Made by a program: the position numbers and the translations under genes
Part shown: positions 1,426 to 27,827 of the stretch, in pieces
Position numbering within the stretch: position 1 is the stretch's first letter
Layout: each line of letters opens with the position of its first letter
Assembly: GCF_003704095.1 (NCBI RefSeq)
Contig: NW_020846166.1
Span: 1-64,000 of the forward strand
Length of the DNA stretch: 64,000 nucleotides
From: Pocillopora damicornis
Taxonomy: Eukaryota
Reading direction: 5' to 3'
The notes under the pieces: generated by a model
What the model was told of the DNA's origin: nothing
Databases searched by the model: none
What the model saw: the letters and a program-made list of their open reading frames with translations, nothing else

Positions 1426-1699
1426 NNNNNNNNNNNNNNNNNNNNNNNNNNNNNNNNNNNNNNNNNNNNNNNNNNNNNNNNNNNNNNNNNNNNNNNNNNN
1501 NNNNNNNNNNNNNNNNNNNNNNNNNTCATCACCCGCTAATTCGTTACCAGTCCACGGGACACTTTGAAGACAAAATAGGAGCACTTTAGGGCCAGTAGAA
1601 GCCGAGTTTTAATTTTTTTAAAGTTTTTCTTCTATTGGAATTGGTTTGTTCATATGATAAGCTAAATATTTAGGCAAAAAAGGAAAAAAAGTTCGTGTC

Positions 1700-1950
1700 C
1701 CAGGCACTTTGAGGGTGTCCACCAGGGAAAAGGCCCAAAACAGGGCGTGATGGAATTATTTGTTCAGAGATTGAAAGTGCTCTCTCAGCAACTTTCAGTT
1801 TCGAAAAACCTTTCCCAGAAGTAGGAAAAACCGAAAGGAAACGCGTTCGTTTCCCACACTGTGTGGAGCCCCCACAGGTTGAAACCACCCCGCGCACGAA
1901 GTGGTTCTCACATAGTGTGTGATGACCGTGATTAAATTTAAAGAAAAATT
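1700..1950 (-). promoter_or_regulatory. Orphan copy of the A-type STING upstream module with ISRE
   Basis: Aligns by eye to ~6435-6670. ACTTTCAGTTTC at 1791-1802. No STING ORF adjacent. Confidence 0.55.
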
Positions 1951-2099
1951 ACTGCACCATCAGGCTTAACAATGCTATTCTCAGCTCGCTTGAATTCCAA
2001 TACCACCACTAATATGGAGAACAGTTAACATTAGCTTGCTGGAGATAGCTCTGCCATATTCAGGCTTTATTCAGGTTTGGTTCACCGAGGAGCATCGAA

Positions 2100-4440
2100 T
2101 TGCCACAGAATGAAGTTGAACTGAAAACCTGTTCACTGTCTATGGCTCTTGGAAATTTCCTCACCCACCCTTGGAGGGCCACTTGGAATGGGATAAGGTG
2201 AGCATTCTAAAAGCTCAATTGTACTTGTAGAGGAATTATACCTTCTCTGAGGGATGGGGAAGTGAATTCTTAACATAATCTTCTCTGTGTGAGAGGTGCA
2301 AATAAGGGTATTTGAACATATTCTACACACACACACACACACAAATGGGTATTTGCAAGATGAAGAGGGAATCTCCCTAAGAATTCTTTCAAACTAGTTT
2401 TACAATTAAGGAGCACTAAGGCCTTCCCTGAGTGTTTTTTTTTTCTCTTAGCAGTGATTGATTTGTAACTAAGACTTGTCCATAGTAAAATCTTGGCAGC
2501 TTATTCTACAAATAAGAGAACTTCTGGCTTGAAACAAAAAACACTTAAACCTGTAGGAAAGCTTGAAGGAGGGAGGGAACCTCCTTCAACCAAAACAAAG
2601 TTGTTGGTTATAATTTTTCCCAAACTTACAAGTAATGGTGTTCTAGTACAGTCAGAGCTGACGCACAGGTGCTTTGTGGTAAGTTTTATTTTTAACCCTT
2701 TCAATCTTAAGAGTGACAAGAATCTAATTTCTCCTTAAAGCAGTACTACTGAAATATTTATTATAAAAACCATGAAAGGAAATGATTGCCAACCTAAAAA
2801 GCTGTGATGTTGTAATCAAATTATTGATAATTAAACCCTAAGGTTAAGTGAAAAACATCAGGCTTATTGAAACCAAGGGTATTCAATTAATAACACAGAG
2901 GAAGTAGATGCCATAACAATGCTTGCAAAGTAGGCAATTGGTTTGTTTGCCTGGTCAACCTTCTTTCCAGGAGAAGGGAGCACCTTCATAGAGAGATACT
3001 GAAGCATACAGAGGCATGCAAAGACTGAAAGCGCACAGTGAAATTTATCACTCTTAGTGGGCAGGGATCTTGACATTCTTGGTGTGCAGCTTGTTTCTAA
3101 ATTTGCTCCAGTATTCCTTCCCTGTTGAGCCTACACAGTGGAACATCACTGGCCTTAAGTAGACCTGGGATCTGCATGAGGAGAGTTGAATTAGCACAGA
3201 ATGAAGTTGAACTGAAAACCTGTCCACTGTTTGTGGCTCTAGGACATTTCCTCACCCATCCTTGGAGGACCACTTGGGATGGGATAGGGTCACTGAGCAT
3301 TCTTAAAGCTTAAGCTTATATATAGAGGAATTATATCTCTTCTGGGGGACTGGGGAAGGGCGATTCCAAACAAAATCTTTTCTGTGTGAGGGGTGAAAAT
3401 AAGGATGATTGAACATATTCTACACAAAAAAGTACTTTGGGTAATTGCAAGATTTAGAGGGGATCTCCTTCTGAAGTCTTTCAAACCAGTTTTACAATTA
3501 AGGCTACTTGATAACTGAGGACTTCACTGAGTATTTTTTTTACTTAGCAGTTACTGATTTATAACTAAGATTTTTCTGTAGTAAAATCTTATTGGTAGCT
3601 TATTCTACAATTGAGGGAGCTTTTGGCTTGAAACAAACAAAAAAAAACTCTTAAACCTGTAGCAAAGCTTGAAAGGGGAGACTCTCCTTCAAAGAAGCAC
3701 CAAAGGTGTTGGTTATAATTTCTCTCAAACTTATAAGTACTGGTATTCTAGCACAGTCAGATTTAACACACAGCTGCTTTGTGTCATGTTTTATTTTTAA
3801 CCCTTTTAATCCTTAGAGTGACAAGTATCAAATTTCTCCTTAAAGTAATATTGCTGAAATATTTATTATAAAGACTGTGGAAATAAAGAAAATAAATGCC
3901 AAACTAAAAAGCTGTGATTGAAACACAAATTCTCCTTGTAAGGAAATTTGCAACTGAGAATAGTAGGAAGAATATGCATACTGATATAGAGGTGTAAAGG
4001 GATAATTAATATGTTTACAGAATAAGAGCACAACAATCATCAATTTAAGTATTTCACTGAGCAAAGCAAAGAAAAATGAAAACTGAGAAAAACTAAACTA
4101 TTCAGCCTGTTTTATAAATCTCTGTTCATGTTTACGTTACTATCCCACTGAGGGCTCACTACAAATTATGTAATCTGCTTGGCTATAAGGAAGGGCAAAA
4201 TAAATTAGGCTATAGCCTTCTCCACTTACACAAATTAAAGGCTGTGCCTTTGAATGTTTTCAGAACACAATCAACATAAATCTGCAAGATGAGGACTGTC
4301 CCTTTACTAACCTCTCTAAAAAACAATGTTAGTCTCCTTAACCAACATCAAGTGGTATCTATTATGGGTGAAATAAAAGTATAAGCCACAAGATTTAGAT
4401 AAAGATTTGTAATCAACATCTTTGCCCCTTCAAAGGCTCC
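2100..4440. repeat. STING 3'-flank segmental repeat, internally duplicated (units ~2100-2810 and ~2810-4440)
   Basis: The block GAATGAAGTTGAACTGAAAACCTGT occurs at ~2108 and ~3199 with colinear downstream sequence; further copies at ~7020 and ~7684. Confidence 0.85.
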
Positions 4441-4568
4441 TCATTCCTACATGCATCAGAAAAGAAATATTTCATTTACTATATTGCAGGTCCTGTAAAA
4501 TATCAGGAACTTATGTGTACAACATTACAGACTGAGTTTCTTGCTACACCGAGTTAGCATTATTTTGT

Positions 4569-6283
4569 TTAGAGCTGTTCTTGTTCTGGTCTGTGCACTC
4601 CATTAGCTTCTGGATTGTGCATCTCAATGTTGGCAGCGTTATGCATCCCAATCAGGACATTTGAGATCTCATTTGGATCATTTCCTGAAATTGGCACTAA
4701 TTCATAAGTCCCTCTGCACTCTTCGGAGTTCTCCAGAATTTCCCTCAATTTTTGGATGAATAACACCACCTATAAGTAAAAATGAAGAGAAGTTCCAGTT
4801 AGATGTGCATCCCACCTCAAACAAATCATATTTATGAGGACCAGTCCTAAGGGGGGGAGGGGGGTACTTCCTAATAAAAGGCTAATGGGGATGTGCTACT
4901 GGATGGCTTGCATTTCCACTGCTAGATTTACTATTTAATAATGGGTTTGCAATTTCAATGCAGTTCCAACAATGGGGTTGCACTCTTCCAGATTTTGGGG
5001 TGAGACAATGTATGCCCAATTGGGAAGATTCATGGTTAAATGAGTCAATTCATTTTAAGATGAGCTACTTAAAAGGCTTTCTAAGGCAGATACATAAAAC
5101 AGAAAGTGACTAAGTTGGGATAGTGAAAGAAACATTCACTTAAAAGCACCTTAGATGGGATCTACAAATGACCACAGAATAGATTATAATGGGTTGAGGG
5201 AGGGTGGGTTCTAAGAGGCCAGTGGCATATACACAGCAGAAATTGACCCAATTACCCAGGGATCAGCCACAATATTGCTTGTGGTAATTAGATCAGGATT
5301 CTCTTCCACTTTGAAAATCAAAGAGAAAATACTAGAAACTTGCCTACCTGATGATCCCGCTCCTCACGATTAAAGGAGGCGTCTGCATGCTCAGACATAT
5401 CATAAAGGGACATCAGAGGTGTGGCATACTCCAAGATAAAGTGGTACCTTTCTACTGTTCCATCAGGGCGGGGCATTTCTATCTTATGTACCGAATGCTT
5501 GTAAATTCTTTCCTTAATTCCACCCCTACTAATTTTAAGCTCTGGGAGATTACCGACCCATTTTACCCTTGGGTCTGCGTCTTTGATGTCAGCACAAGTG
5601 AAGCACGTTTTGGGCAGTAAAATGAATAGCTTTTTCCTTGTTATTTCATAACGAAAAAGCTCCGATCTGCCAATCTGATCTTTCAGTTTTGGCAGTACCA
5701 GCTTCAGATAACCAAAGTAGTAGCTCCAAGCCAGCCCATCAGCCACATTCTTGTTTTCTTTTTCGTTTAAATCCGATGTTTCCACAGGAGAGAGCTGTCG
5801 GAGACCCACAAGGTACAACAACTGCGGAGCCACGAAACAGTTCAGAAAAAAGAAAATGGCGAATTCTGGGCGAGAGAAAACTTCGTATTGTTCATACAAC
5901 TGATAACATAATATGAGAGCGGAAGCAATAGCAGCGACTAAAATACACTTGCCATAATCGAAGGTGAAAGTGGTCTTAAAAATACCCTTCAACTTTCCTT
6001 GATATCTCGTGCGTTTGTGTTTGAACTCCTCAGACAACAGGGGCAACCTTCGAAATAATTCACCGAAAACAAAACTGAGGGTAAGCAGGGCAGCTGTAAA
6101 CACCAGGAAATGAAACTCCTTCTCTTTATCTTTCACCGCGAAGAATAGCGTCGCGCCACTTATCACAACCATAATAGCTGAAGTGACAGTAGCAGTTTTC
6201 CCACGACGCTTGAAAAGTGGTCCAAAGCCGTTATTTTCTTGCTGAGCTAAGTCATCTCCTCGAGGAAGACGATTTTCAGCCAT
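4569..6283 (-). CDS. STING1: STING paralog A (stimulator of interferon genes), 2 exons: 6283-5348 and 4769-4569, ~378 aa
   Basis: N-terminal hydrophobic TM segments followed by STING hallmarks [41 protein letters not shown] and EYATPL. Phase-0 GT..AG intron (CAG|gtaggc ... ttatag|GTG) joins to exon 2 [12 protein letters not shown]... Confidence 0.95.
4851..5258. mobile_element. Putative non-autonomous element with GGGGGTACT...CCCAATTACCC ends in the STING A intron
   Basis: G-run plus TACT at the left end and a degenerate complementary end at the right. Absent from the introns of B, C and D. Confidence 0.45.
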
Positions 6284-6394
6284 GGTGTATATAATATTTC
6301 CTCCTAAACGCAGAATTTACGTACTCGTAAAGATGGTCACAAAGAAATGCGTTAAACTGGGGAAGGCAGATCGATTTGACTCCCGACATGATTT

Positions 6395-6560
6395 ATTTTG
6401 GGAATCCCCTAGATAAAAACTCTGACCTTGATTGGCCAGGAGTCTTGAGGGTGTCTTTGGGCTTCCCCCCGCGAGGGGAAATTCGGAGATTGAAAGTGCT
6501 CTCTCAGCAAGTTTCAGTTTCGAAAACCTTTTTCCGGAGGAATGTTAAACCGAAAGGAGA
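6395..6560 (-). promoter_or_regulatory. STING A promoter cassette (kB / CCAAT / kB-like / ISRE)
   Basis: GGGAATCCCC 6400-6409; ATTGG (CCAAT on -) 6431-6435; GGGCTTCCCC 6459-6468; AGTTTCAGTTTC 6510-6521 (ISRE consensus); AAACCGAAAG 6547-6556. Confidence 0.7.
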
Positions 6561-6814
6561 ATGCGTTGGTTTCCTAAACCGCGTGGAGCCTCCTTAGGTT
6601 GAAACTACCTCGAGCACGAGGTGGTTCTCACATCATGTGTAAAGACCGTGATTCAATTTAAAGAAAAATTATTTCAGCTTTCTCTCTCTGTCTAGGTTAT
6701 TGTCCAGCTAAAGAGAGAAGAACTATCTCGATCCTTGACTGTTGTTATTATTAATGACATTCAAATTCATATGCTTTTTCTAATAATTAATAATTTGAAC
6801 TTTACATAGGGGCT

Positions 6815-8299
6815 TTGATGTTGTAATCAAATTATTGATAACTAAACCCCATGGTCAAGTGGAAAACATTGGGCTCGTTGAGACCAAAGGTATTCAATAA
6901 ATCACAAGGAGGATTATTCTTGGTGTGCCGCTTATTTATAAATTTGCCTCATTATTTCTCAGGAACATCACTGGCCATAAGTAAACCTGGGATCTGTATC
7001 AGGGGAGTTAAATTGTTACAGACTGAAGTTGAATCGAAAACCTGTCCTCTGTTTGTGGCTCCAAGAAATTTCCAACCCACTCTTGGAGGGCCTTTTGGAT
7101 TTGGATAGGGTGAGGATTCTAAAAACCTTATGGGTATTTATAGAGGAATGACATCTCTTGTGATTGATGGATGGGGGAAGGTGATTCTGAACAAAATCCT
7201 CTCTGTGTGAGGGGTGCAATTAGGGATATTTTTAAACATATTCTACACAAAAGAATACTTTGGATACTTGCATGATTTAGAGGGGATCTCCCTATGAATT
7301 CTTTCAAACCAGTTTTACAGTTTAGGCAACTTGATCACTAAGGCCTTCCCTGAGTGTTTTTTTTNNNNNNNNNNNNNNNNNNNNNNNNNNNNNNNNNNNN
7401 NNNNNNNNNNNNNNNNNNNNNNNNNNNNNNNNNNNNNNNNNNNNNNNNNNNNNNNNNNNNNNNNTGTAATCAAATTATTGATAATTAAACCCCATGGTCA
7501 AGTGGAAAACATTGGGCTTGTTGAGACCAAGGGTATTCAGTTAATCACAAGGAGGATTATTCTTGGTGTCCAGCTTATTTCTAAATTCACTCCATTATTC
7601 CTTCCCTGTTGAGCCTACACAGTGGAACATGACTGGCCTTAAGTAAACCTGGGATCTGCATCAGGGGAGTTTAATCACCACAGAATGAAGTTGAATTGAA
7701 AACCTGTCCACTGTTTGTGGCTCCAAAAAACTTCCTCACCCATCCTTGGAGGGCCTTTTGGAATAGGATAGGGTGAGGATTCTAAAAGCTTATGGGTATT
7801 TATAGAGGAATGATATTTCTTCTGAGCAATGGATGGGGAAAGGTGATTCCAAACAAAATCCTCTGTGTGAGGGGTGCAATTAGGGATATTTTTTAACATA
7901 TTCTACTTTGGATACTTGCATGATTTAGAGGGGATCTCACTATGAATTCTTTCAAACCAGTTTTACAGTTTAGGCTACTCGATAACTAAAGCCTTGCCTG
8001 AGTGTTTTTTTTCTTAGCAGTTTTGTAACTAAGAATTTTCCGTAGTGAAATCTTTGTAGTTTATTCTACAATTGAGAGAACTTCTGGCTTGAAACAACAA
8101 AAAAATTGAAAGCTGTGGCAAAACTTGAAGGGGGGAGACTCTCCTTCAAAGAAGCACCAAAGTTGTTGGTTATAATTTTTCCCAAACTTATAGGTACTGG
8201 TGTTCTAGTACAGTCAAAGTTAACACACAAGTGCTTTGTGGCAAGTTTTATTTTTTTAACCTGTTAGATCCTAGAGTGACAAGTATCTAATTTCTCCTT
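6815..8299. repeat. Two further tandem copies of the flank repeat between STING A and B
   Basis: TGTAATCAAATTATTGATAA...CCCATGGTCAAGTGGAAAACATTGGGC at ~6822 and ~7464, colinear with 2810-3840. Confidence 0.85.
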
Positions 8300-8973: not shown

Positions 8974-9887
8974 TCAGTCTCCTCTTCTTAATCTCTTTTT
9001 GGTTGCACTGTGCATTCCCACAAGGACATCCGCAATCTTGTTTGTGTCATTTCCTGAAATTGGAACCAATTCATACTTTCCTCTGCATTCCTCAGAGTCA
9101 TCCAAAATTTCCCTCAGCTTATGGATGAATAACACCACCTAGGTTACAACGAAAATGGTTTCAGTTGGTGTAAGCATTAGCTTAACCCTTCAGCTCTCAG
9201 TAGTGATTGACCTGTAACTTCTCCACATAATATCCATACATCATCCAGCAAACAGTTGATGAGAATACTCAAACTTATCAGATAGAAGTTGTTATCTTGA
9301 TTTAATGCCAAATTCTAGTGTATAAGCTAGAAAAGTGAATAAACAATCAGATCTTGGGAGTTAAAGGGTTAAAAAAAAAAAGGGTATTAAAAAAAAACTA
9401 CCTCAAAAAGAAATTCTAAGAACAAATATTTGTTATCATATATCTAAAATCACACAACAGATCACACTTGTTCACCTGATGATCCCGCTCTGGACCAGTC
9501 AAAGGGGCCTTTGCATGACCAGACATTTCGCACAGGGACATAAGAGGCGTAGCGTACTCCAAGACAAAGTGGTACTCTTCCACTGTTCCATCTGGGCGGG
9601 GCATCTCTATGCGGTGTACCGCATGCTGGTAACTTCTCTCCAAAATTCCAGCCCTGTTAATTTTACTCGCGGGAAGTTTGCCGGCCCATTTTACCCTGTC
9701 ATCTGCTTTGGATATTTCTTCAAATGCATAGCACGTTTTTGGAAGTAAAATGAAAAGCTTTTCGTCTGTAATCTTATGACGAAATGTGTCCGATTCGGAA
9801 ATACGATATCCCAGTCTTGGCAGCACCAGCTTGAGATAACCAAAGTAGTAGCTCCAAGCCAGCCCATCAGCCACATTCTTGTTTTCT
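8974..9887 (-). CDS. STING1: STING paralog B, 3' part (exon 1 partial 9887-9476, exon 2 9138-8974); 5' end lost in the gap at 9888
   Basis: [17 protein letters not shown]...[11 protein letters not shown]...EYATPLMSL. Same intron position as the other copies. Exon 2 has a +1 indel relative to copy C and ends ...[12 protein letters not shown]. Confidence 0.88.
9182..9372. mobile_element. piggyBac-type MITE (TTAA-CCC...GGG-TTAA) in the STING B intron
   Basis: TTAACCCTT...GGGAGTTAAAGGGTTAA termini with TTAA on both sides. Confidence 0.75.
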
Positions 9888-10344
9888 NNNNNNNNNNNNN
9901 NNNNNNNNNNNNNNNNNNNNNNNNNNNNNNNNNNNNNNNNNNNNNNNNNNNNNNNNNNNNNNNNNNNNNNNNNNNNNNNNNNNNNNNGTTTCAACTCGCT
10001 GTCTGATTGGTTAATTAGGACAATACGTTAAGGTGAGGTGTCTCTGTGGGGATGGGGTAAGTATTGTACATTAATCGACCTAAAACAGATAAACAACTAA
10101 AACAGATAAACAACGGACAAAATTCGAGTGGCGTGTGTTACCCGCAAGTTATGTAGAAGAATGTGTGGGTGCATTTCCCAAAGGAACGAAGGAAATATGA
10201 TCCCATTTGGCACTTGAATTAAACGCCTCTTGATGCCCCTCGATGCTCTTCGGTGAACCAAGCCTGAATATGGAGCAAGCAAGCTACTTTTAACTGTCCT
10301 CCATGTTAATGATGGTATTCGAATTCATGTGAGTTGAGATTTAG

Positions 10345-10508
10345 CAATGGTTCATATGTCAGCGTGCGTTCATCGAGATATGAAGCACGCGGGATGTTTG
10401 GAGAGCACGAAAGGTGCGTAAGAGTTGCTCCAGGCTTCTTGAGCGCTCTCCAAACTTCCCAAGGGCTTCATATCTCGATGGACGCACAGCTGACGTAAGA
10501 ACCAATTG
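10345..10508. mobile_element. Palindromic (hairpin) MITE-like repeat
   Basis: ~60-bp imperfect inverted arms: GTCAGCGTGCGTTCATCGAGATATGAAGC...GTTTGGAGAGC versus GCTCTCCAAAC...GCTTCATATCTCGATGGACGCACAGCTGAC. Confidence 0.7.
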
Positions 10509-10699
10509 TTTTATAACATTTTCAACCCAAAGGAAAATTCTTTTCTCGAGGGATTTGTTTGCTGATGTCATGAGCGTGCACAATAGGAATATGAAGCACG
10601 CTCGTGTAATTGAATTTGATTAGACAAATTTACTAGCTCTGTTAAAAATACCATTGTTAAACCTGTTGGTGACGTAATTTGTCTTTAATTTAATTAAGG

Positions 10700-10975
10700 T
10701 CAAACCTCGTGCTCGAGGTGATTTCAACCTGCGCGGGCTCCACGCGGTGTAGGAAACCAACGGGTTTTCCTTTCGGTTTTTCAGTCCTCTGAGATAGGTT
10801 TTCGAAACTGAAACTTACTGAGAGAGCACTTTCAATCTCCTAACAAATTATTTCATCACGCCCTATTTGAGGATACTACCCAAGCGGGGGACAGCCCAAA
10901 GACAAACACAAGACTCTTGGCCAGTCAAGGCCAGAGTTTTTATTTAGAGGATTTCCCAGGTAAATCATATCGGTT
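10700..10975 (+). promoter_or_regulatory. Second orphan A-type upstream module, upstream of the B promoter
   Basis: Reverse complement of ~6385-6620. GAAACTGAAACT 10804-10815 intact; CCAAT mutated to CCAGT and the proximal kB site altered. Confidence 0.55.
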
Positions 10976-11299
10976 TATGCAGAAGTTTTATGTCATTTGG
11001 CAATAGCATTAATAACCTCTTGATCTTCCTTGTTCTCTTCTATGATCCTAGCCAAGATTAAGGCAGAGCTAATTTTAACTGGCCCTCGCATAAATATGGA
11101 TAATCCAATATTGAAGCAATAGCTATCATTATAAACCCTGATTTAAAATTTTAATTTTTTTCTAGTTTCTATGAGGACATGCAACCTTCCTGTGAAAACC
11201 ACAATTTTTAAACTTGATAGACTTTCAAGGAGTAGAGGGGCTCCAAAAGGTATAGGTTAGGGAAAAGTTTTTATTTTAGTTTTTCATTCGTGAGGGAAA

Positions 11300-11460
11300 G
11301 ATCTCTAGAAACCGAAAGTTGCTGAAAAAGCACTATGAAACTTTGATTAGCCCACCCCTTCAGGGGGGTTTTCCCCCAGGGGTACACCTTATAAACACCC
11401 TGACGTGCTCCTGGCCAATCAGGTCCAGAGAATTGATGTGGGGGATTACCCAAGTAAATG
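11300..11460 (+). promoter_or_regulatory. STING B promoter cassette
   Basis: GAAACCGAAAGT 11308-11319; GGGGTTTTCCCC 11365-11376; CCAAT 11415-11419; GGGGATTACCC 11441-11451. Confidence 0.7.
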
Positions 11461-11569
11461 GCGTTCTATTTGAATAAGTGATCAGCTCTCAACAATTTGA
11501 CGCATTTAGTGGTGGTCAACTTCACGAGTACTACGAGACCATCGAGAGAAAGAAATAGTTTTATCCACC

Positions 11570-11678
11570 ATGGCAGATAATCTTCTTCCCCAAGGAGATG
11601 ACGTAGCTCAGCAATCACATAATAGCTTTGGACCACTTTCCGAGCTTCGTGGAAATATTGCTACGATCACATCAGCTA
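11570..11678 (+). CDS. STING1: STING N-terminal fragment, probably the missing 5' end of paralog B on an inverted contig
   Basis: [36 protein letters not shown] is nearly identical to the N-terminus of copy C. It runs into an N gap and is preceded by a C-type promoter on the + strand. Confidence 0.8.
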
Positions 11679-12615: not shown

Positions 12616-14108
12616 CTATTGCCTTGTTTGCTCATCAGTCTCGTCTTCTAAATCTATGTTGCTCGCACTGTGCATTCCCACAAGGACATCCGCAATCTTG
12701 TTTGTGTCATTTCCTGAAATTGGAACCAATTCATACTTTCCTCTGCATTCCTCCGAGTCATCCAGAATTTCCCTCAGCTTGCGGATGAATAACACCACCT
12801 AGGTTACAACGAAAATGGTTTCAGTTGGTGTAAGCATTAGCTTAACCTTTCAGCTCTCAGTAGTGATAAACCTGTAACTTCTCCATAATATTCATAAATT
12901 ATCCAGCAAACAGTTAATGAGAATACTAAAACTTATCAGGTAGAAGCTGTTATCTTGATTTAATGCTAAATTCTTGTTACTAATTTACAAGGAAATGTGT
13001 TTAAGCTAGAAGGGGGAATATACAATCAGATCTTGGGAGTTAAAGGGTTAAGCTACAACAATCAATTACAAAATTTGTATTAAAAACACTACCTCAAAAA
13101 GAAATTCTAAGAACAAATATTTATTATCATATATCTAAAATTATACAACAGATCACACTTGTTCACCTGATGATCCCGCTCTGGACCAGTCAAGGGGGCT
13201 TTTGCATGACTTGACATTTCGTACAGGGACATAAGAGGCGTAGCGTACTCCAGGACAAAGTGGTACTCATCCACTGTTCCATCTGGGCGGGGCATCTCTA
13301 TGCGGTGTACCGCATGCTGGTAACTTCTCTCCAAAATTCCAGCCCTGGTGATTTTACTTTCGGGGAGTTTGCCGGCCCATTTTACCCTGTCATCTGCTTT
13401 GGAGATTTCTCCAAATGTAAAGCACGTTTTTGGAAGTAAAATGAAAAGCTTTTCGTCTGTAATCTTATGACGAAATGTGTCCGATTCGGAAATACGATAT
13501 CCCAGTCTTGGCAGCACCAGTTTCAGATACCCAAAGTAGTAGCTCCAAGCCAGCCCATCGGCCACATTCTTGTTTTCTTTTTCGTTAAAATCCGATGTCT
13601 CTACAGGAGAAAGCTGTCGAAGACCCACAAGGAATGACAATTGCGGAACCACGAGACAATTCAGGAAAAACAAGATGGAGAAACCTGGACTCGAGAAAAC
13701 TTCGTATTGTTCATGCAGCACAAAACACAGTGTCAGAGCGGAGGCGATGGCGACAACCAAAATACTACCGGAATTATTGAAAGTGAAAGTCGTCTTGAGA
13801 ATATCCTTCCAGTTTCCTCGATATCTCGCGTGTTTGTGTTTAATCTCTTCAGACACTAGGCACAATCTTCGTACCATTTCTCCGAGAACGACACTCAAGA
13901 TAAGTAGGGCTGTTGTAAACACCAGGAAGTGAATCCCTTCTCTCTTTTCGTTATCCTTTACTGCGAACAAAAGCATCGCGCTACTAATCACAACCACGAT
14001 AGCTGATGTGATCGTAGCAATATTTCCACGAAGCTCGGAAAGTGGTCCAAAGCCATTATGTGCTTGCTGAGCTACGTCATCTCCTCGGGGAAGAAGATTA
14101 TCAGTCAT
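12616..14108 (-). CDS. STING1: STING paralog C, 2 exons: 14108-13167 and 12798-12616, ~374 aa
   Basis: Full STING motif set ([25 protein letters not shown]). Intron CAG|gtgaac ... cctag|GTG. Acidic tail [14 protein letters not shown]. Confidence 0.95.
12842..13051. mobile_element. piggyBac-type MITE in the STING C intron (same site as in B)
   Basis: TTAACCTTT...TCTTGGGAGTTAAAGGGTTAA. Confidence 0.75.
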
Positions 14109-14219
14109 GGTGGAGAAAACTATTCCTTTCTCACGATGGTCTTACGTTACTCGTGAAGTTGGCCTCAACCAAATGCGTCAAACTGTTGGGAGCAGATCAC
14201 TTATTCAAATAGAACGCCA

Positions 14220-14410
14220 TTCACTCGGGTAATCCCCCAGATGAATTCTCTGGACCTGATTGGCCAGGAGCGCGTCAGGATGTTCAGAAGGTGTACCCCT
14301 GGGGGAAAGCCCTCCCTGACGGGGTGGGTTAATCAAAGTTTCATAGTGCTCTTTCAGCAACTTTCGGTTTCTAGAGATCTTTCCCTCACAAATGAAAAAC
14401 TGAAATAAAA
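14220..14410 (-). promoter_or_regulatory. STING C promoter cassette
   Basis: GGGTAATCCCC 14227-14237; TGATTGGCC 14257-14265; GGGGAAAGCCC 14302-14312; ACTTTCGGTTTC 14360-14371. Confidence 0.7.
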
Positions 14411-15476
14411 ACTTTTTCCTAACCTATACCTTTTGGAGCCCCCCCACTCCTTGAATGTCCGTTGGGTTTAAAAATTGTGGTTTTCACAGGAAGGTTGCAT
14501 GTCCTCATAGAAACTAGAAACAAATTGACTTTAAATCAGGGTGTATAATGGTAACTATTGCTTCAATATTGGATTATCCATATTTATGTGAGGGCCAGTT
14601 AAATTAGCTCTGCCTTCATCTTGGCTAGGCTCATAGAAGAGAACAAGGAAGATCAAGGGGTTATTAATGCTATTGCCAAATGACATAAAACTTCTTCATA
14701 AACTGATACCACCTGTTTAAGGCGTTCCTAGTTCCAACAGTTTACAAGCTCTCTCTGGATCAATTAATATTGTTAATTTCTTCTGGTCAAGCAAAAAGGG
14801 TTCATAAAAATATTCTGTCCATGACTGAAGCACATTGAACCGTAATTAAGACTGAGAAGAAATCCTGCCTAAACCATGGCATCTGAAACACATTTCTGAT
14901 GATTTTAGTATTGAGAATTTGGTGTTATGTAAAACACTTGAGGTATAATGATATTGTTTTCTTCTTTCTCATCACCTGAGATGCATCAAATTGAAAACAT
15001 AATTTTTTGGGGGTTTTCACGGGAATGAAAGGGTGAAGTGATATATTACTAATCAAACCCATGTATGACCTTTATAGCTGGCCATCAAGGCAAGTTTACA
15101 TGCTACAACAGGGGGCAGAGGGGTGGGGTGTATGGATGGAGCCAGGACACTACTTGTCTTGTATGAAAGTGACAATAACTTTCACATTTTTCTGCCTCCC
15201 TCAGACAGTTAAGGACATCAGTATATTTATTAGCTATCAACAAAGTATCTTTAGGATTCCTTGGTATAAAATGCTGTGAAATTACAGTTTCAGTGAACAA
15301 CTGTATCAGAAAAGTGTAAAAAGAAAAAATTTGGTATTTTCACAATAGTACTTGTGTCAGTTGTCTTTATAGACTATACTACTTTCTAAAAATGTTCTCA
15401 GTTTTTTATAGACTGATGTATTTATGTCTCAGATCCCTCCTATAATGAATAAGCAATATCATTTTGTTCACAGCGG

Positions 15477-17685
15477 TCACTGTTCTGGTATTTTCACTTC
15501 ATCAGCTTCCTCATCCATCTCCACATTGGCAGCTTTATGCATTTCAACCAGGATATCTGCAATCTTGTTTTTCTCCTCATCTCCTGAAAATGGAACCAAT
15601 TCATACCTTCCTCTACATTCTGTACTCTTATCCAAAATTTCCTTCAGTTTTCGAATGAACAACACTACCTAAAGGATATGAAAGAGAGAGAAAAAGAAAA
15701 GGATTAAACAAAGTTTAATTATATATAATATAATTATATGTGTAAATAAATCTTGATTATGATCTATCCTTGTGGTGTAGTGCTCGATGTGTTCGCAGAG
15801 TATGATATGTCTAAAAGTTGGACAAATCAATAAGACCTAACTTTTCTGTGAAACCTGCGTTTCACACTTACGCGATCATCAGCCATGAAAATTGGTCTAA
15901 TGACTGCATAGCATGAAACTCAGAGTTACAGAAAAGTTATGTCTTATTGATTTGTCCAACTTTCATATATATATATATAGGTATATGTACATATATTCAT
16001 ACATACATACATATAGGAAATTCATGTTTAACATACAGATGAAATCTTATTTTGCAATTCAAGACTTAATTATCATTTGCTTTGAACATTACAATTAAAA
16101 TGCACATTTTTTGTTCTTTTTGCTCAAAATGACATACAGTTTTTAAACTGTTTGTGAGTTTGTTTTATCAATACAGCACAAGAAGGCAAAGGAGCTGTTT
16201 TAACCACCGAAAAATGGGCTGGGGTAGAAAAATACAGCCTATGGGAACTTTGAAGGAAGTTTTAAACTTTCCTCATTTTACTTTTCTGGTCAATGTATGA
16301 AACAACCAATTTGAATTGCTTTTGGTGTACACATATTTTATCATCAATCTTCAAATTAAAAATAAAAAAAAAAGAACAGAATGTGGTAAGAGCAATTCAC
16401 CTGATATTCTTTTGCTTATTTGTTTTTTTTCTTCCTGTTGTTATCTTAGCCTAAAATCATCTGCAATCCTCCAAAACCTAACAAATACATGAATGCTATT
16501 CCCTGGGTGCTTCAACATCTGGTGTCTGACCTGACACATACTGGTGTCCAGGCTCTATGGCTAATGCATAATGTAAGCTTTCACATTGAGGCATGGAGAA
16601 CTACTTGACAAGCACATAAAAACTCTGAATGGAAGAGATAACATTTTTCACATGCTTCTCAATTGCTTTTCTCAGGCCTGTGGTAGGAGGCAGTAAAAAA
16701 ATTAAATTACATAACAATCCAAGTGTATCAAAAATGGTCACCGCACTACCTGGTGATCCCGCTCTGGAGCCGTTAATTGGGCGTCTTGGAAGTTAGACAT
16801 ATCATGAAGGGTCATCAGAGGCGTGGCATACTCCACAATAAAGTGGTACTTTTCGTTTGTCCCATCTGGCATCACTATTTCATGTACCGCATGCTTGTAA
16901 CTTCTCTCCTTAATTCCTCCCCTGTTAATTTTACTCTCCGGGAGATTGCCGACCCATTTTACCCTGGAATCCGCTTCCTCAATGTCATCACATGTGAAGC
17001 ACGTTTTTGGAAGTAGAATGAAAAGCTTCTTGTCTATTATCTTATGACGAAATGGGTCCGATTCTGATATCCGTTGTTCCAGTCTTGGCAGCACCAGCCT
17101 CAGATAACCAAAGTAATAGCCCCAAGCCAGCCCATCAGCCACATTCTTGTTTTCTTTTTCGTTCAAATCCGATGTCTCTACAGGAGAGAGCTGTCGAAGA
17201 CCCACAAGGAACGACAACTGCGGAACCACGAGACAGTTCAGGAAAAACAAGATGGAGAAACCTGGACTAGAGAATACTTCGTATTGTTCATACAGCCCAA
17301 GACACAATATTAGAGCGGAAGCGATGGCGACGACTAAAATACTACCGGAATTATCGAAAGTGAAAGTCGTCTTGAGAACAGCCTTCCAGTTTCCTCGATA
17401 TCTCGCGTCCTTGTGTGTAATCTCTTCAAACACTAGGCACAATCTTCGTACTATTTCTCCGAGAACGACACTCAAGGTAAGCAAGGCTGTTTTAAACACC
17501 AGAAAATGAATCCCTTCCCTCTTTTCGTTCTCCTTCACTACGAACAAAAGCACCGCGCTACTAAATACAACCACGATCGTTGATGCGATCGTAGCAATAT
17601 TTCCACGAAGCTCGGAAAGTGGTCCAAAGCCATTATGTGCTTGCTGAGCCACGTCATCTGCTCGGGGAGGATGATTATCAGCCAT
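15477..17685 (-). CDS. STING1: STING paralog D, 2 exons: 17685-16750 and 15668-15477, ~375 aa
   Basis: STING motifs ([36 protein letters not shown]). Intron CAG|gtagtg ... tttag|GTA. Confidence 0.95.
15814..15963. mobile_element. Palindromic MITE in the STING D intron, followed by a (TA)n/(TACA)n tract
   Basis: AAAGTTGGACAAATCAATAAGAC.TAACTTTTCTGT is mirrored by ACAGAAAAGTTA.GTCTTATTGATTTGTCCAACTTT. Confidence 0.75.
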
Positions 17686-18339: not shown

Positions 18340-21198
18340 ATGGCGCAAAACGACGTGATTGTCATCAGCGACGATGAAGGAGACTTTGTCAACAAAAAGA
18401 TATCGGAGAAAACACAAATTATTGTTATCGATGAGGACGATGACATTGTCGAATTGACGGAAACGACGAGCAATGTCATTGAAACAATCGCAAGTAGTCA
18501 AGTTAAATCTGAGTCTTGTCGTCCGTTGAAAAATTTGAAATTCAGCGAAAATGGCGTTAAGAGGCTCCAAGCCCAGGTAAAGCTCATCGACATTGGAAAA
18601 TCGAAGAAGCCACTGAAACTTAAAGCTGTGAAACCAGAGAATGACGAGGTAGTTGCAACCAGTTCAACCGAATTAAAAGAAACCAATTCATCGGTGCAGC
18701 AGGTGAGAATTGAGATGGAAAGATTCCCGTTCTTCCGATACTTATTCTAAAACAAAGTCTTAGTGTTAATGTATTGTTTGGCCATTGGTTTCTTTTATCC
18801 AAGTACTGTAAGCATATCGAAGTATAGGGTTATACGGAAATCTTGCTGAGTTTTCTTCAGAGCTTTTCTTCTAAGCTCTGAAGAAAATTGAATTTCTTGG
18901 AACAAGAAAAATTACAACCCAATCTCTTTCATTCAGTGTGGTGTCTGGCCAGATCTTCATGAGCATCCCTAATCCAGATAAACTAGTAACCAAGCACAGT
19001 GTTTGGATGTACTTTCTAAACCACAAGGAGGCTTATTAATATCAAGGTTCCTTCATATCATCGTAAAGCTGTTCAAAGTTGGTAATGTTGTTACTTAGGT
19101 TAGTCTTGCTTACTCAGTGGACAACAACTGCCATACTGGGGCTTATACTGGTATTGGCTGCATTGAGTTACCAGGACAACATGTGTTACTTTTCCTGGAC
19201 AGGATGGTGGTTCACTGCAGGGTATCCATTATGCTCACTTACTCTCATGCTTAAAGTTGTGATTGTCACCAACCGGATTCTCTTGACCGAAAAAAAAAAA
19301 AAATAGAAACACTTGAACATTTACAGCCCTGACTGGTACATTTTGTAAATGTTTCATAGTTAGATTAAGAGCTTGAATCAATCTAAGTAGAGGGATATTT
19401 TTCTAATAATCTTGCTTTCCATGAAACCCTACGATATTGAAAGGGGACACAAGAAGAAAGGTTGTGTAAAAACTCTTTGAGGCTTTGTCAAAAGGTTTTA
19501 TAGTTTCCTTGAATTTCTATGGTTTTTTTGGGTTATGATTGGGTCCTCTACAAAAAATACCAAATTGACTTTGACTTTGACTTTTAAAAAAGTTGATGGA
19601 TGCATTACAAGTCTTTTTGCAGTCATCAAGTGTCACTGAAAGTTTGTTGTCTGAGGTGAAGAGAGGCAGTGTTTTGGTTAAGTGTGCTAACTACAAAACT
19701 CTCATCTTTCCTGTTGACTGATTCCTAATTCTCTATATGTTTCCAGGTTAAGACTGAAGAAGTGGATGCACACAATGGGGAGTTAAGAATGAACCTCTTT
19801 GAGAAATTCTGGTCTGGTAAACAAGAAATCATCAGCAACAAACCTGCAAAAGTCATTGAAAGTTTTGATGACTCATACAAACACAAAAAGGCTAAAAGCT
19901 CTTGTCAGTCTCCATCTTCATTAAAGCAGAGGAGACTCAACGCTGAGAGTTTCTCTCCTAAGAAGAGGCCTCCTTTACATGGGATTGTGAGAGATGGAGA
20001 ACTTTTACATTACACAACACCTTTACACTGCACAGTTCCACTGAAAAAATTAGAACTTGCAAGCAAACAAGAAGAAAGCTTGAGCAAAACCTTCACTGAA
20101 AACCAGCTGAATTCACTGCAAGCTCTTAAAGAAGAGAATTTTCACAAAACCTACCTGGAAACTGTCACCAGCTTTATGAGTCCACGTCGTAAGCCACCTC
20201 CATCCCTTCTGTTTTACCTGTTCAATAATATCTTGCTCTCCAAGCAAAGTGGCTGTGGTACAGAATGTTTTAGAATTCTCTTACGGATTCAAGAATTGCA
20301 TCCTGCTGAGGTGGCACAGATGTTACAACAGAAAATTACATGGGAGTTTGTTTCCATGATAGTGAAGCTAGCAGGATGCACACAGTCTCACACAGTGGAA
20401 AGCTTTAAAATGAATGCCTCCATGGCTTTGTCTTTTCTTGTAAGTGTCATGGAAAAGGAAGTTGAGAAAAAGAAAGTCTGCCTTGTCAAGACAAGTGCGC
20501 ACCGATTTTTCTCAGTAGATAGACTTTCGGGTAATTTTCATGATGTTGTAGAGTGGGTTAAAAAGGCCACAGAAGAACATCTCGAGGAACAATTGGACCA
20601 ACATTGTGGGCATAACTTCTGTCCACTATATTTATTACAAAGAATGCTTCAGTTGTCAGTGTTAGTCGGTCAAAGACCAGAGGACACTGCTGTAAGACTA
20701 GCCAATGATTTAGTTTTGGCTTATGTAGAGTTACCATCTATCAAGTATAAAACATTGTTGCTTCAGTCAATACAGTCACATTTATTGAAGACAAAGCTGA
20801 TTGAAATTGTGGTGAAAAACTGTTGTTCTATTGATGAAGAGTTAGAGGAGGAAAGAATGACTAGCTCTGGATTGAAAAATGTGGTCTTAAACTTCAAAAG
20901 ATCTCCACCTCTCTCTGATGGCATTGTTAGCACTACAAACTGTGAAGAATTTGTCATGCTTCTTGCATATTGGCTGCAAAGCTTTATTTTCTGTCACAAG
21001 AGGTCTTTAATGGCAAAAGGAAAAGAATCACAGCGAGTTTTGTCCCTAAATGATGTGGAGGTACTGAGGAGAATTGAACAGGAAGTGTCTATTTTGACAG
21101 CTCGTTTAGAGTTATTATGTGGCTCTACACTCTCCCCAAGAAGCTACCAATTACTGCAATTAATCTTGTCACTAAAGAGTTTTGCACAAATTCCATAG
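18340..21198 (+). CDS. SIMC1: SIMC1-like protein (SUMO-interacting motifs plus Nse5-like helical domain), 2 exons: 18340-18702 and 19747-21198, ~604 aa
   Basis: N-terminal SIMs with acidic flanks (VIVISDDE, IIVIDEDDD, IVELT). The C-terminal segment FMSPRRKPP...ILL...LLRIQELHPA...W resembles the human SIMC1 FVSPQHYPP...ILL...LMKIQQLHPA...W region as recalled. In-frame phase-0 GT/AG intron. Confidence 0.75.
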
Positions 21199-24227: not shown

Positions 24228-25862
24228 TTAGATCTTCTTATTCAAATATGAATCAACGGCTTTCCACAGAGCAGTTATGTTGCCTGCTCCAAATCCTGTA
24301 GCCCCACATCGCTGGATAACCTCCAGGAAAAAGGTTTCTTTGTTAAAAAGTGGTCTAGTAAAAACCTGCATCAAATATCTGTAAAATAACAACAAAAGAA
24401 AGGTAGTTAATTCACCATAAATACCTCCCACTAACAAAATGTTAGATTCCTCTTTGGAATCTCATCTTAACTCACTTGTTGTCAGCATCTTGGTTTACAT
24501 TCATATTTTCCAAAGATGAGGCAGTGCTTTTGCTAGAGGTGAAGCTCTCTGCATCCAACAGAATACCATGTTTCTGGAGAGACTCCACACTCTCTCCTAC
24601 ATCTCTTATTTCCTGCACTTTATCTTCCTGTGAAGTGAGATTGATCTCGTCAGATGTGTCCTCTTAGAAGATTTACCAGTTGCCTATAGGCTCTTGCAGA
24701 AAAAGTTGGGATTGCCTAGCTCCTAAAAACTTTTGTGAAAGTAAAGTCACACCCAAATAAAAGTTCCTCCAAAGACCAAAGTTAGCTGACTTTAGCACCA
24801 TGATTCTGTTGAGAGTGAAACCCTGATACACTGGCTAAGCCACAACTACACTTAAAGATGAACTAATGTGCATGTATGGCAAAAAGGAAGCCAATTGTGA
24901 TGACCTTTCCAAAGATTGTTATCTTGATCAAACACCAAATTCTTCCAANNNNNNNNNNNNNNNNNNNNNNNNNNNNNNNNNNNNNNNNNNNNNNNNNNNN
25001 NNNNNNNNNNNNNNNNNNNNNNNNNNNNNNNNNNNNNNNNNNNNNNNNAGGGTTTATTACACAACCCTGAATGATTTTGTCAATTGAAACAAATGTTCTA
25101 ACCTTGTCCAGGGAGAGGTTCTGCGAAAACGAACTTTACGCCTCCTCCTGGTTCATCGGTGTCTATTCTCAGCTCTGATTCCGAGCAAAACCAATACTGC
25201 ATGGCTGCCAACTTCATCCCGATGCTCGCTCCTTGTATTGAGCTCTGCACAATGAAGCCGTCCGATTTCTCGTCAGAGCTGATATTAAACCTACTAAACC
25301 CAAAACATCGCTCATACCATTTCATTATCGCCTGAGAAGTCCCTAACGAGCATGCAAACGTAATGTGATCAAAGTGTGTTAAAATACGATCGCCAATCAC
25401 TGTATTCTTGTTTGACGTGATCGATGGGGTTACATAATCAAATCCTTCGCGTAACGCTCTCTTGTCACTTCGATGAAAACCCGGCAAAAACACACCGTTG
25501 TAACCAGAAGCATTTAACAATGTGTGAACAACGTTCCCTACAGGAGTTTGTATAACGGCAGATTCCACCACTCCATTGCTATCAGCCAATGTTTCTGGTC
25601 TTTTGATAATTTTCCCGTCATTTCTTTCTACATTATCCACCACATTTTTCACATCTTTGACTTCAAGGGCAACATTGTAAACGGTGTCTCGCTCACCGGC
25701 GCCTTCGCTCAGAACAAAGTTTATAGAGTCCCGGTTCAGAGTGACCCGATTAGGAAAGGAAGACGAAGCAAGCACTCTAAACCCAAAGTGTCCGCATAAT
25801 TGCCTCAAACTTTGCTGAAGATTTTGACAACGTATTTCGACATGATGCAAACGAACCACCAT
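24228..25862 (-). CDS. HPDL: 4-hydroxyphenylpyruvate dioxygenase-like protein; exons 25862-25103, (an exon probably lost in gap 24949-25048), 24627-24476, 24378-24228
   Basis: Glyoxalase/VOC-fold N-terminus, [14 protein letters not shown], and C-terminal [11 protein letters not shown]...[23 protein letters not shown] typical of HPDL. Confidence 0.88.
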
Positions 25863-27827
25863 GTTTCTTTAATTCAGAACTAGTACCAGTCTCTACTCAT
25901 ACGAACCAAGTCCATTTCAGCCCAGAACTTTAACGGGAGGGGTAGTAAAGATAAAATGCAACCCAGTGCGGTGAGATTGCTCATTCTAGGATCGTTACCG
26001 GCGGTATTGCCCTCAGTAGCGTAGTATTTCACAGACTGTAGCTTGCGGTGTATTATCATCGGAGATGGCCAGAGAGGCACGTGTGGCACGGCTTATGCGC
26101 GCAGGTTGAGCTTAAGCGCGCGTGAAAGGTGTGGTTACCCCGCTATAGCTGGATACCTTACTTAATCCCTTACCGAAGCACTGCAGGCTACGGTAACTCT
26201 GGATCCTTTACTTCTTGAATTCCTCAGCTCGAACTTGTGGCTTTGCAACTCAAAGTTTTGTCCCTTTCGTATCACTCAAGTGGTTCCTTTTCCTTCTTTG
26301 CCGCAATCAGTGAACTGATCGATTCAAACAAATCATGCAAAAAGTTTTTTTCAAACCTGTATAAATGTATTTCACGTAATTTGCACCTAATAAGGTCAAC
26401 GACTATGCGTGTGACAGTAGCACAGGGAGGTGATTTTTTTAGGGATATGTGAAGAATCAAGGCCTAAGAAATTCGCAAATTGTATTCGCATTGGGGCACC
26501 AAAACGACCCACACCCACCCAAGAAATACGCGCCAAGGTGCAGATTTGCTTCGGAGTTTTCACAGCTTACATGGGCGGTTCAATGTGTTTTCAAATGCTT
26601 GTCAACATTGTCGAGAAACATTTATGATCCTGATTGCGAAAAAAAATTGTCATTGAAGATGGGGGAGCTCGCGAAAAAAGTAAATGGACTTTAGTCTCAA
26701 ATCTTTCTTTTCTCTCCGAATCACTTTTCACGTTCACCCACTCAGATAGCAAAGGCTAAGAGTGCTTATCGTGGAAAGACTATAGTAAACCTTTTGAGTT
26801 ATTTATCCATTTTGAATTTTCTAAGCAAATCTCCCATGTGAAACAAACTTCGCTCTCAGGGAAAGACCCTGGGTCGACCATGGGAGCGAGGCTCCTTACC
26901 CGCCCACTGTAACGCCCCCTTTCGGCTTCAGATGAATGCCGGGAATCTACAGCGGGAAAGAAACAAGAGCAGAAAGACTTCTCTTGTGTTGGGAAATTCC
27001 GAGGCACAGTTCCACGTGTAATATTCTGGTAAGGAAAACTAATTTACGAACTTAAGTGATTTGATTATTGCTTTCTCTATTTCGTGGGTTTCACTCCACG
27101 GTGCGTAGATCGATTCTTTGAAACTACTTCGTGATACAGAAAACTCGATTTGATAGACGTGAATTTGAAATATAATTAGTTAGCGCACCTCGTACATTTT
27201 TGTAAATTCTCGATTGATAGCTGTTGCTCCATTTTAGGATATATCTTATTTTAGGCAAACAGTAAAATCTTTTTGTTTCAAACGGTTAACGTGAATGTAT
27301 TACTACGGCGAACAGGTACCAGAGCCCCGTGAGTCAAATTGAATCTCAAGTACGTTTACAAATAAACGTATCGCCTACCGGTACTTTTGATGAGAATGCT
27401 AACGCGTAAATTAAACGTAATACTACATGTTACATTTCATTTTCTTATTTTTGAGAAATTAATCGATGAAGTACAATTTAACCCAGATTGCACCCAGCTT
27501 AGCTGATTACAAAATGTAGTGATCATTTGCTTGATTACTTTGTGAATAGGTTTTGTTTATTCATTGTGATGAATGTCCTAGTAATAAAGATATGTCCTTT
27601 GTCAAGTAATACTTATCTTCTTCATATGATAAGGTCAGTCAAAATGTTTATGCACTTGAACTCCCTCTGCATTAAGAAAAAAATTCCATAAAGAGAATCC
27701 TGTAGGATTCCCCCAATGTAAAAATCTTGTTAGTATTTTACGTAGGTTTGCTTCGTTTAGAATGTTACTGGAGACATTATAAATAAATGATGCAACAAAA
27801 TACACTTTTTTTCCTTTATTAAGAAAC

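What the first reader, a model, noticed from the sequence alone, without database searches (positions are those of the whole stretch)
13200..17140. Paralog-specific substitutions in the cyclic-dinucleotide pocket and lid
Seen (numbering by eye against human STING): D has GLAWGYY, with Gly at the S162-equivalent pocket position, while A/B/C keep Ser. The lid reads [11 protein letters not shown] (A), [11 protein letters not shown] (B), [11 protein letters not shown] (C) and [11 protein letters not shown] (D). The T267 equivalent is T in D and S in the others. R232, R238, Y240, E260, T263, Y163 and Y167 equivalents are kept in all. Inference: all copies still bind cyclic dinucleotides but may differ in linkage or base preference.
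Basis: partly seen in the sequence, partly recalled or inferred. Interest (0 to 1): 0.7.

Follow-up and report, generated by a model that had tools for sequence, protein, structure and literature searches.

The report
Coral STING copy with glycine pocket
Four side-by-side coral immune receptor genes (STING) match receptors already studied in a related coral, and the one new feature is a glycine in copy D's messenger-binding pocket, which likely loosens rather than switches its preference for 2'3'-linked messengers.

Summary
The four tandem genes correspond to Stylophora Sp-STING1 (D, PDB 8EFM), Sp-STING2 and its twin (C, B) and Sp-STING7 (A); Li et al. 2023 showed paralog-specific cyclic-dinucleotide preference in that family. 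Their linkage determinants are positions 162 and 263, not 267. All four copies keep T263 and R232, the 2'3' state. The K/L236 lid contrast already separates Sp-STING1 from Sp-STING2, both reported as 2'3'-preferring. The 3'3' specialist (N162/S263) lies elsewhere in this genome. C's T231 is a rare allele. Pocket positions differ no more than the rest of the domain, and dN/dS is 0.31-0.44. What is new is S162G in the Pocillopora STING1 ortholog: real, spliced, and present in 12 of 13 D-type sequences. Gly162 recurs about 24 times among 258 STING domains and I found no assay of it. C and D also share homogenised membrane halves. The scan noted the Stylophora orthologs and half-swapping before (e1-9513225).

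The parts
16750..17685 (-). STING copy D, exon 1 (312 codons: membrane domain and most of the ligand domain); ortholog of Sp-STING1
   Evidence: Pfam PF23417 + PF15009; 89.5% ligand-domain identity to P0149/8EFM; tree sister to P0002, SH-aLRT 96-98
15477..15668 (-). Copy D, exon 2 (63 codons + stop); protein 375 aa; intron 16749-15669, GT-AG
   Evidence: 1081-base joint in RNA runs X8, X17, X19, X20 and X15; splice sites
17119..17121 (-). D codon GGC, Gly at the human S162 equivalent (residue 189)
   Evidence: 12 of 13 D-type sequences with the position readable have Gly
16894..16926 (-). D lid, identical to the Sp-STING1 lid (R232, G233, K236, R238, Y240)
16810..16833 (-). D E260 to T267 segment: T263 at 16824-16822, T267 at 16812-16810
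   Evidence: Thr267 in 14 of 14 D-type sequences, Ser in Sp-STING1
13167..14108 (-). STING copy C, exon 1 (314 codons); ortholog group of Sp-STING2; S162 at 13544-13542, T263, S267
   Evidence: Pfam; about 90% ligand-domain identity to P0328, named STING protein 2 of Stylophora
13317..13349 (-). C lid (T231, A233, L236, Q241); A233/L236/Q241 shared with Sp-STING2, T231 a rare allele
12616..12798 (-). Copy C, exon 2 (60 codons + stop); protein 374 aa
   Evidence: spliced B/C-type RNA contig ends at 12800 and 13164
8974..9886 (-). STING copy B, ligand domain (9886-9476) and exon 2 (9138-8974); 5' part lost in an assembly gap; tail ends early after the domain
   Evidence: 94% amino-acid identity to C over the exon-1 ligand domain, 0 of 16 pocket differences
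11570..11678 (+). First 36 codons of a B/C-type STING on a contig that lies inverted between two gaps (9988-11678); likely B's start
   Evidence: 91.9% identity to C's start and upstream region over 714 bases
4569..6283 (-). STING copy A, exons 6283-5348 and 4769-4569 (378 aa); ortholog group of Sp-STING7; S162, T263, S267
   Evidence: 83.7% ligand-domain identity to P0011, named STING protein 7 of Stylophora
16997..17685 (-). Tract of D homogenised with C (membrane half, linker and first pocket helix, which holds codon 162)
   Evidence: 63 of 689 mismatches before the break, 57 of 246 after; permutation p<=0.001; no such break for D-A or C-A

Best explanation
The four genes are coral STING receptors matching Stylophora Sp-STING1 (D), Sp-STING2 and its twin (C, B) and Sp-STING7 (A), and all four likely remain receptors for 2'3'-linked cyclic dinucleotides, with D's Ser162-to-Gly change predicted to loosen or weaken that preference rather than switch it. 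Shown: gene structures, orthology, residues, splicing of D. Established for the orthologs: a dimer binds the messenger between Y167 and R238, the lid closes, R232 reads the 2'-5' linkage, S162 holds the free 3'-OH of the guanosine, and T263 contacts the base. Inferred: A, B and C keep this whole set and behave like Sp-STING1/2; their lid differences tune affinity or base choice only. D has lost the S162 hydroxyl but keeps R232 and T263 and gains neither residue of the 3'3' switch (N162, S263), so it would bind 2'3'-cGAMP less tightly and discriminate linkages less strictly. The 3'3' role is likely filled by an unlinked gene (L006, N162/S263).
For: Sp-STING1 S189 contacts the guanosine 3'-OH; N178 and S275 give Sp-STING3 its 3'3' preference. 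P0149 numbering matches the paper's S189, Y194, R261, Y263, and S275 maps to the T263 equivalent (alignment). Sp-STING1, 2 and 5 prefer 2'3' with distinct patterns. Drosophila N159 at the same position switches to 3'2'-cGAMP and N159S weakens binding; R232 reads the 2'-5' bond. A preprint states that human S162T or S162A destabilises the cGAMP complex. L006 has N162/S263 like 8EFN. The three Stylophora proteins P0149, P0328/P0329 and P0011 lie on a contig of the same length, 919006 bases, which fits one conserved cluster. Gly162 is in 12 of 13 D-type sequences although it lies inside a tract homogenised with a Ser-coding neighbour.
Against: No binding data exist for any of these proteins; the effect of Gly162 is inferred from contacts in other structures, and I had no coordinates to dock. 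Sp-STING7 was not among the four assayed, so A's preference rests on residues alone. The Sp-STING2 and Sp-STING7 identities rest on database names; the preprint's supplements did not give the accessions and its supplementary figure file could not be read. Position 162 is not unusually variable or conserved (13 changes against a median of 9), and AGC to GGC is one transition, so Gly may be neutral. One D-type sequence (P0327) has Ser.
Confidence: 0.55

Rival explanations
1. The substitutions are neutral or nearly so: position 162 tolerates any small residue, water replaces the Ser hydroxyl, and D binds like Sp-STING1.
For: No enrichment of differences in the pocket. dN/dS 0.31-0.44 between old paralogs in the exon-1 ligand domain. 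Ser(AGY) reaches Gly and Asn by one transition. Gly162 changes at least 24 times on a tree of 258 domains. A simulation places S162 and T267 in the second sphere.
Against: S162 is a direct ligand contact in Sp-STING1 and human STING; substitutions there change binding in fly and human STING. Gly is held in 12 of 13 D-type sequences inside a converted tract.
Confidence: 0.27
2. Gly162 with a larger residue at 267 (Thr in D, Asn in many others) rebuilds the pocket floor for a different messenger, such as a 3'2' or 3'3' linkage or a pyrimidine-containing signal.
For: S162, T263 and T267 form the pocket floor. Among the 120 listed homologs all 22 with N267 have G162, and 31 of 34 G162 proteins with 267 readable are not Ser there, against 7 of 80 S162 proteins. 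G162/N267 also appears in a Hydra vulgaris STING (P0262). Both of D's pocket changes arose on the same branch.
Against: After correcting for descent the coupling is not significant: 5 same, 0 opposite, 3 unchanged of 8 pairs, p=0.0625; column 267 ranks joint 9th of 122 for co-change; median p 0.5-0.6 on the wider set. S162/N267 exists (P0139, P0181). D has Thr, the human and Nematostella state. Recombination between paralogs can move codon 162, so origins may not be independent.
Confidence: 0.13
3. D is decaying or is a low-affinity modulator that dampens signalling through mixed dimers with B/C.
For: Loss of a ligand-contacting side chain; membrane halves of C and D are homogenised, which would permit mixed dimers.
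Against: Open frame, spliced in 5 RNA runs of 4 studies, all other contact residues kept, about 90% identity to Sp-STING1, dN/dS about 0.3.
Confidence: 0.05

Closest known systems
Sp-STING1 of Stylophora pistillata (PDB 8EFM, 8GJZ; P0149; Li et al., bioRxiv 10.1101/2023.02.22.529553)
   Same: Ortholog of D: 89.5% identity in the exon-1 ligand domain, identical lid, T263, R232, R238, Y167, Y240.
   Different: D has Gly for S189 (162) and Thr for S294 (267), a two-residue deletion after the lid, and a membrane half closer to C (86.7%) than to Sp-STING1 (76.1%).
Sp-STING2 (P0328, named by UniRef) and its twin P0329
   Same: Ortholog group of B and C: about 90% ligand-domain identity, same A233/L236/Q241 lid, S162, T263, S267; 0 of 16 pocket differences between C and the cluster representative P0004.
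   Different: Only C's rare T231 allele; membrane halves 77% identical.
Sp-STING7 (P0011, named by UniRef)
   Same: Ortholog group of A: 83.7% ligand-domain identity, S-R-G-G-I-K lid, S162, T263.
   Different: Sp-STING7 has S264 and T267 where A has P and S; not among the assayed proteins.
Sp-STING3 (PDB 8EFN), the 3'3'-preferring receptor
   Same: Same fold and family; shows that position 162 sets linkage preference.
   Different: Has N162 and S263, found in none of the four window copies; its counterpart in this genome is L006.
Drosophila STING (N159; Slavik et al., PMC8410604)
   Same: A change at the 162 position alters which free hydroxyl is read.
   Different: Gains a longer side chain (Asn) and repositions R229; D loses the side chain and keeps R232.

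Membership tests
Metazoan STING (TMEM173) | N-terminal STING membrane domain (PF23417) followed by ligand domain (PF15009) | tested here: met
   Both above cut-off for A, C, D; PF15009 only for B, whose 5' part is in a gap
Metazoan STING (TMEM173) | Universal ligand residues Y167, R238, Y240, E260 | tested here: met
   Present in all four
Metazoan STING (TMEM173) | V-shaped dimer that closes on a cyclic dinucleotide | not testable with these tools
   Inferred from about 90% identity to 8EFM; no ligand scoring or coordinates available
2'3'-preferring STING (Sp-STING1/human type) | Ser at 162 | tested here: met
   Met for A, B, C
2'3'-preferring STING (Sp-STING1/human type) | Ser at 162, copy D | tested here: not met
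   Gly (GGC, 17121-17119)
2'3'-preferring STING (Sp-STING1/human type) | Thr at 263 and Arg at 232 | tested here: met
   All four
2'3'-preferring STING (Sp-STING1/human type) | Measured preference for 2'3'-linked ligands | not testable with these tools
   Reported for Sp-STING1, 2, 5; not measured for these proteins
3'3'-preferring STING (Sp-STING3 type) | Asn at 162 and Ser at 263 | tested here: not met
   None of A-D; met by L006 elsewhere in the genome
3'2'-preferring STING (Diptera type) | Asn at 162 and a one-residue lid deletion | tested here: not met
   No Asn162 and lid length equal to human in A-D

The most novel reading that the evidence does not exclude
Gly162 marks a third, unassayed class of animal STING pocket (beside Ser for 2'3' and Asn for 3'3' or 3'2'), evolved many times in cnidarians, often with Asn or Thr at 267 filling the freed space, and tuned to a messenger not yet matched to a receptor; Pocillopora converted its STING1 ortholog to this class while swapping membrane halves with its neighbour.
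Probability: 0.15. Interest if true: 0.65.

Novelty: new variant of a known kind. Interest (0 to 1): 0.32.

Why it matters
The rules linking STING pocket residues to messenger preference come from few structures and cover Ser and Asn at position 162. Gly is the second commonest residue there among coral STINGs (35 of 120 listed homologs) and I found no test of it. D differs from a crystallised, assayed ortholog at only two pocket positions, so it is an unusually clean natural pair for testing what Gly162 does, and it bears on how corals divide signals from their many cGAS-like enzymes.

Tried and rejected
Positive selection or concentration of change in the pocket: not seen. General co-evolution of 162 and 267: not significant after tree correction. 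T267 as the published Ser/Thr linkage switch: rejected, that switch is the T263 equivalent. N/T231 as a B-versus-C marker: rejected. Gly162 as a sequencing error: rejected. B and C as two alleles of one gene: less likely, since they differ by about 10% over 1082 bases and flanks of both appear in runs X1, X2 and X9, in X9 at depths like D's (71-90 against 80), but contig depth is no copy number and this is not settled. Expression of C apart from B: not resolved; RNA contigs over C's 3' half carry B's letter at 19 of 24 listed places checked. No structure or complex prediction was run: a ligand cannot be scored and a dimer would pass by likeness to 8EFM. The 2015 Nematostella STING paper and the journal version of Li et al. 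were not held, so the role of F276/K236 rests on a review passage, the F/K difference between chains 5CFO and 5CFP and recall. A paper on the evolution of STING had no passage on these residues.
Full report
Locus. The window opens with four tandem STING genes on the minus strand, each of two exons split at the same place: D (17685-16750, 15668-15477), C (14108-13167, 12798-12616), B (9886-9476, 9138-8974; start lost in a gap, with a likely 5' piece inverted at 11570-11678) and A (6283-5348, 4769-4569). A, C and D pass Pfam cut-offs for the STING membrane and ligand domains; B for the ligand domain. Named close homologs are from Pocillopora and Stylophora, so the organism is most likely a Pocillopora. 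The genome holds six matches in all, these four plus L005 and L006 (lower bound).

Observation. D's Gly162 and Thr267 each differ from the Ser codons by one base. D's exon-1 frame is in the protein collection exactly, on 11 contigs. Contigs from 5 runs cover 16744-17151 without a difference; 2 more runs have 2 unlisted differences each; one run's listed piece does not reach codon 162. The 1081-base intron of D is spliced in 5 of 5 RNA runs laid, from 4 studies. Among D-type sequences listed (a subset of larger clusters, 15 listed per cluster and call), Gly162 is in 12 of 13 with the position readable, the window's own included, and Thr267 in 14 of 14. C's T231 is seen only in C itself; 9 of 9 other listed C-type members of its cluster have Asn.

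Orthology. D's exon-1 ligand domain is 89.5% identical to P0149, whose numbering matches Sp-STING1 in the paper (S189, Y194, R261, Y263) and which clusters with 8EFM and 8GJZ. B and C group with P0004/P0328/P0329, P0328 being named STING protein 2; A is closest to P0011, named STING protein 7. These Stylophora proteins are recorded on a contig of the same length, which fits one conserved cluster. The lids of D and Sp-STING1 are identical, as are those of B and Sp-STING2, so the lid contrast predates the split of the two genera.

What is published. Li et al. (10.1101/2023.02.22.529553; I read the abstract, sections 8 and 9, search passages and searched the six readable supplements; one figure file was unreadable) report seven Stylophora STINGs, four assayed, each with its own affinity pattern; three prefer 2'3' linkages and Sp-STING3 prefers 3'3'. 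The determinants are S189 versus N178 (position 162) and Thr versus S275, which maps to T263, not T267. Slavik et al. (PMC8410604, passages) show N159 at the same position reading the 3'-OH of 3'2'-cGAMP and R232 reading the 2'-5' bond. Passages of PMC10095708 place S162, T263 and T267 on the pocket floor; passages of 10.1101/2021.07.12.452045 put S162 and T267 in the second sphere and cite destabilisation by S162T/A; passages of review PMC7288161 list Nematostella F276, the 236 equivalent, as a 3'3'-cGAMP contact. Passages of 10.1101/2023.05.08.539652, PMC13499098, PMC8204762, PMC4117786 and PMC10855445 added nothing on Gly162. A search for STING with S162G found 0 papers; searches on coral STING paralogs and on gene conversion listed nothing on this point by title and abstract start. 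Most subscription papers are not in the library.

Applying the rules. A, B and C have S162, R232 and T263, the full 2'3' set. D has R232 and T263 but no side chain at 162. None has N162 or S263; L006 has both and resembles 8EFN, and L005 has N162 with T263. So a linkage switch among the four is not predicted. The likeliest effect of Gly162 is loss of the hydrogen bond to the free 3'-OH, giving weaker or less selective 2'3' binding. This step is inference.

Is the pattern more than chance? With 16 pocket and lid positions chosen by me from the papers above, differences are no denser in the pocket than elsewhere: C-D 4 of 16 against 31 of 117, A-C 3 of 16 against 36 of 119, D-P0002 2 of 16 against 12 of 117, B-C 0 of 16 against 8 of 119. 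dN/dS in the exon-1 ligand domain is 0.31-0.44 between old paralogs and 0.18 for B-C. Position 162 changes 13 times on a tree of 124 rows, against a median of 9 per column.

Gly162 elsewhere. Among the best 120 of 230 homologs, 162 is Ser 80, Gly 35, Asn 3, Ala 2. All 22 with Asn267 have Gly162. Among 113 distant domains from 50% representatives, 10 have Gly162 and 3 of the 4 with Asn267 have Gly162; one is a Hydra vulgaris STING. On a tree of 258 domains Gly162 changes at least 24 times (few columns, many open forks). With trait columns left out, the coupling with 267 gives 5 same, 0 opposite, 3 unchanged of 8 independent pairs (p=0.0625; B and truncated P0117 dropped), ranks joint 9th of 122 columns and is not significant on the wider set. 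It is a lead, not a result, and the Asn267 version of it was formed after seeing the data.

Recombination. C and D are 91.7% identical at the DNA level in the membrane half (dS 0.19) but 79.8% in the ligand domain (dS 0.54); the break near 16997 is significant (63 of 689 against 57 of 246, p<=0.001) and absent in D-A and C-A. D's membrane half is nearer C (86.7%) than Sp-STING1 (76.1%), the reverse of its ligand domain. Other proteins pair an A-type or C-type ligand domain with a distant membrane half (P0032, P0057). Codon 162 lies inside the homogenised tract, so Gly either arose after the last conversion or was kept against it, and counts of independent origins may be inflated.

Earlier notes. 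After forming this reading I found e1-9513225, on another genome, naming Sp-STING1 and 2 and the swapping of halves; nothing was noted near this place.

Verdict. A real observation in a known family whose paralog-specific preferences are already published. The new element is a natural Gly at a known specificity position in the ortholog of a crystallised receptor, untested and easy to test.

Noticed in passing
window 16997-17685 and 13420-14108: Membrane halves of C and D are homogenised while their ligand domains are as distant as old paralogs; similar half-swaps appear in P0032 and P0057.
   Followed up: yes
window 9988-11678: Contig between two 100-N gaps lies inverted relative to the array and carries the likely start of B; probably a scaffolding error.
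   Followed up: partly
window 8974-9010: B's tail departs from C's after the ligand domain and stops early; allele, paralog change or assembly error not resolved.
   Followed up: no
L006 997-1962 (G000:C2287): Unlinked STING with N162/S263, close to Sp-STING3 (8EFN), the likely 3'3' receptor.
   Followed up: partly
L005 1477-2601 (G000:C3358): Unlinked STING with N162, T263, A264; its cluster varies at 162 (Asn in 12 of 15 listed, Ser in P0054 and P0398, Thr in P0409), a natural S/N polymorphism at the linkage switch.
   Followed up: partly
proteins P0046-P0049, P0348-P0389: A-like pocilloporid STINGs absent from this assembly with G162, N or D267, often Arg at 263 and sometimes Lys at 238: a heavily remodelled or non-binding pocket.
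   Followed up: partly
proteins P0020, P0376, P0262; loci L007-L020: G162/N267 pocket in Orbicella, Pocillopora meandrina and Hydra vulgaris; a possible distinct pocket class, coupling not significant after tree correction.
   Followed up: yes
proteins P0173, P0179, P0180, P0187, P0191: Proteins with two to four STING ligand domains in one chain among the 50% representatives, with degenerate pockets.
   Followed up: no
window 60-8299: Several 78-89% identical copies of a few-hundred-base unit, plus a piece at 1738-1979 like the upstream regions of A and B, suggesting remnants of further duplications.
   Followed up: partly
window 12930-13055, 9245-9375, about 10348-10640: Short elements with very high contig depth in all runs, likely high-copy repeats in the B/C intron and upstream of B.
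   Followed up: no
window tails of A, C, D (exon 2): Tails after the ligand domain are short and show no vertebrate TBK1/IRF3 docking motif (motifs recalled, not tested by a call).
   Followed up: no
window 18340-21198 (+), 25098-25868 (-), 36826-37557 (+), 60231-60920 (-): Neighbouring genes: two frames without Pfam match, a glyoxalase-fold frame, an ornithine-aminotransferase-like frame (by eye) and a harmonin-N/PDZ frame.
   Followed up: partly
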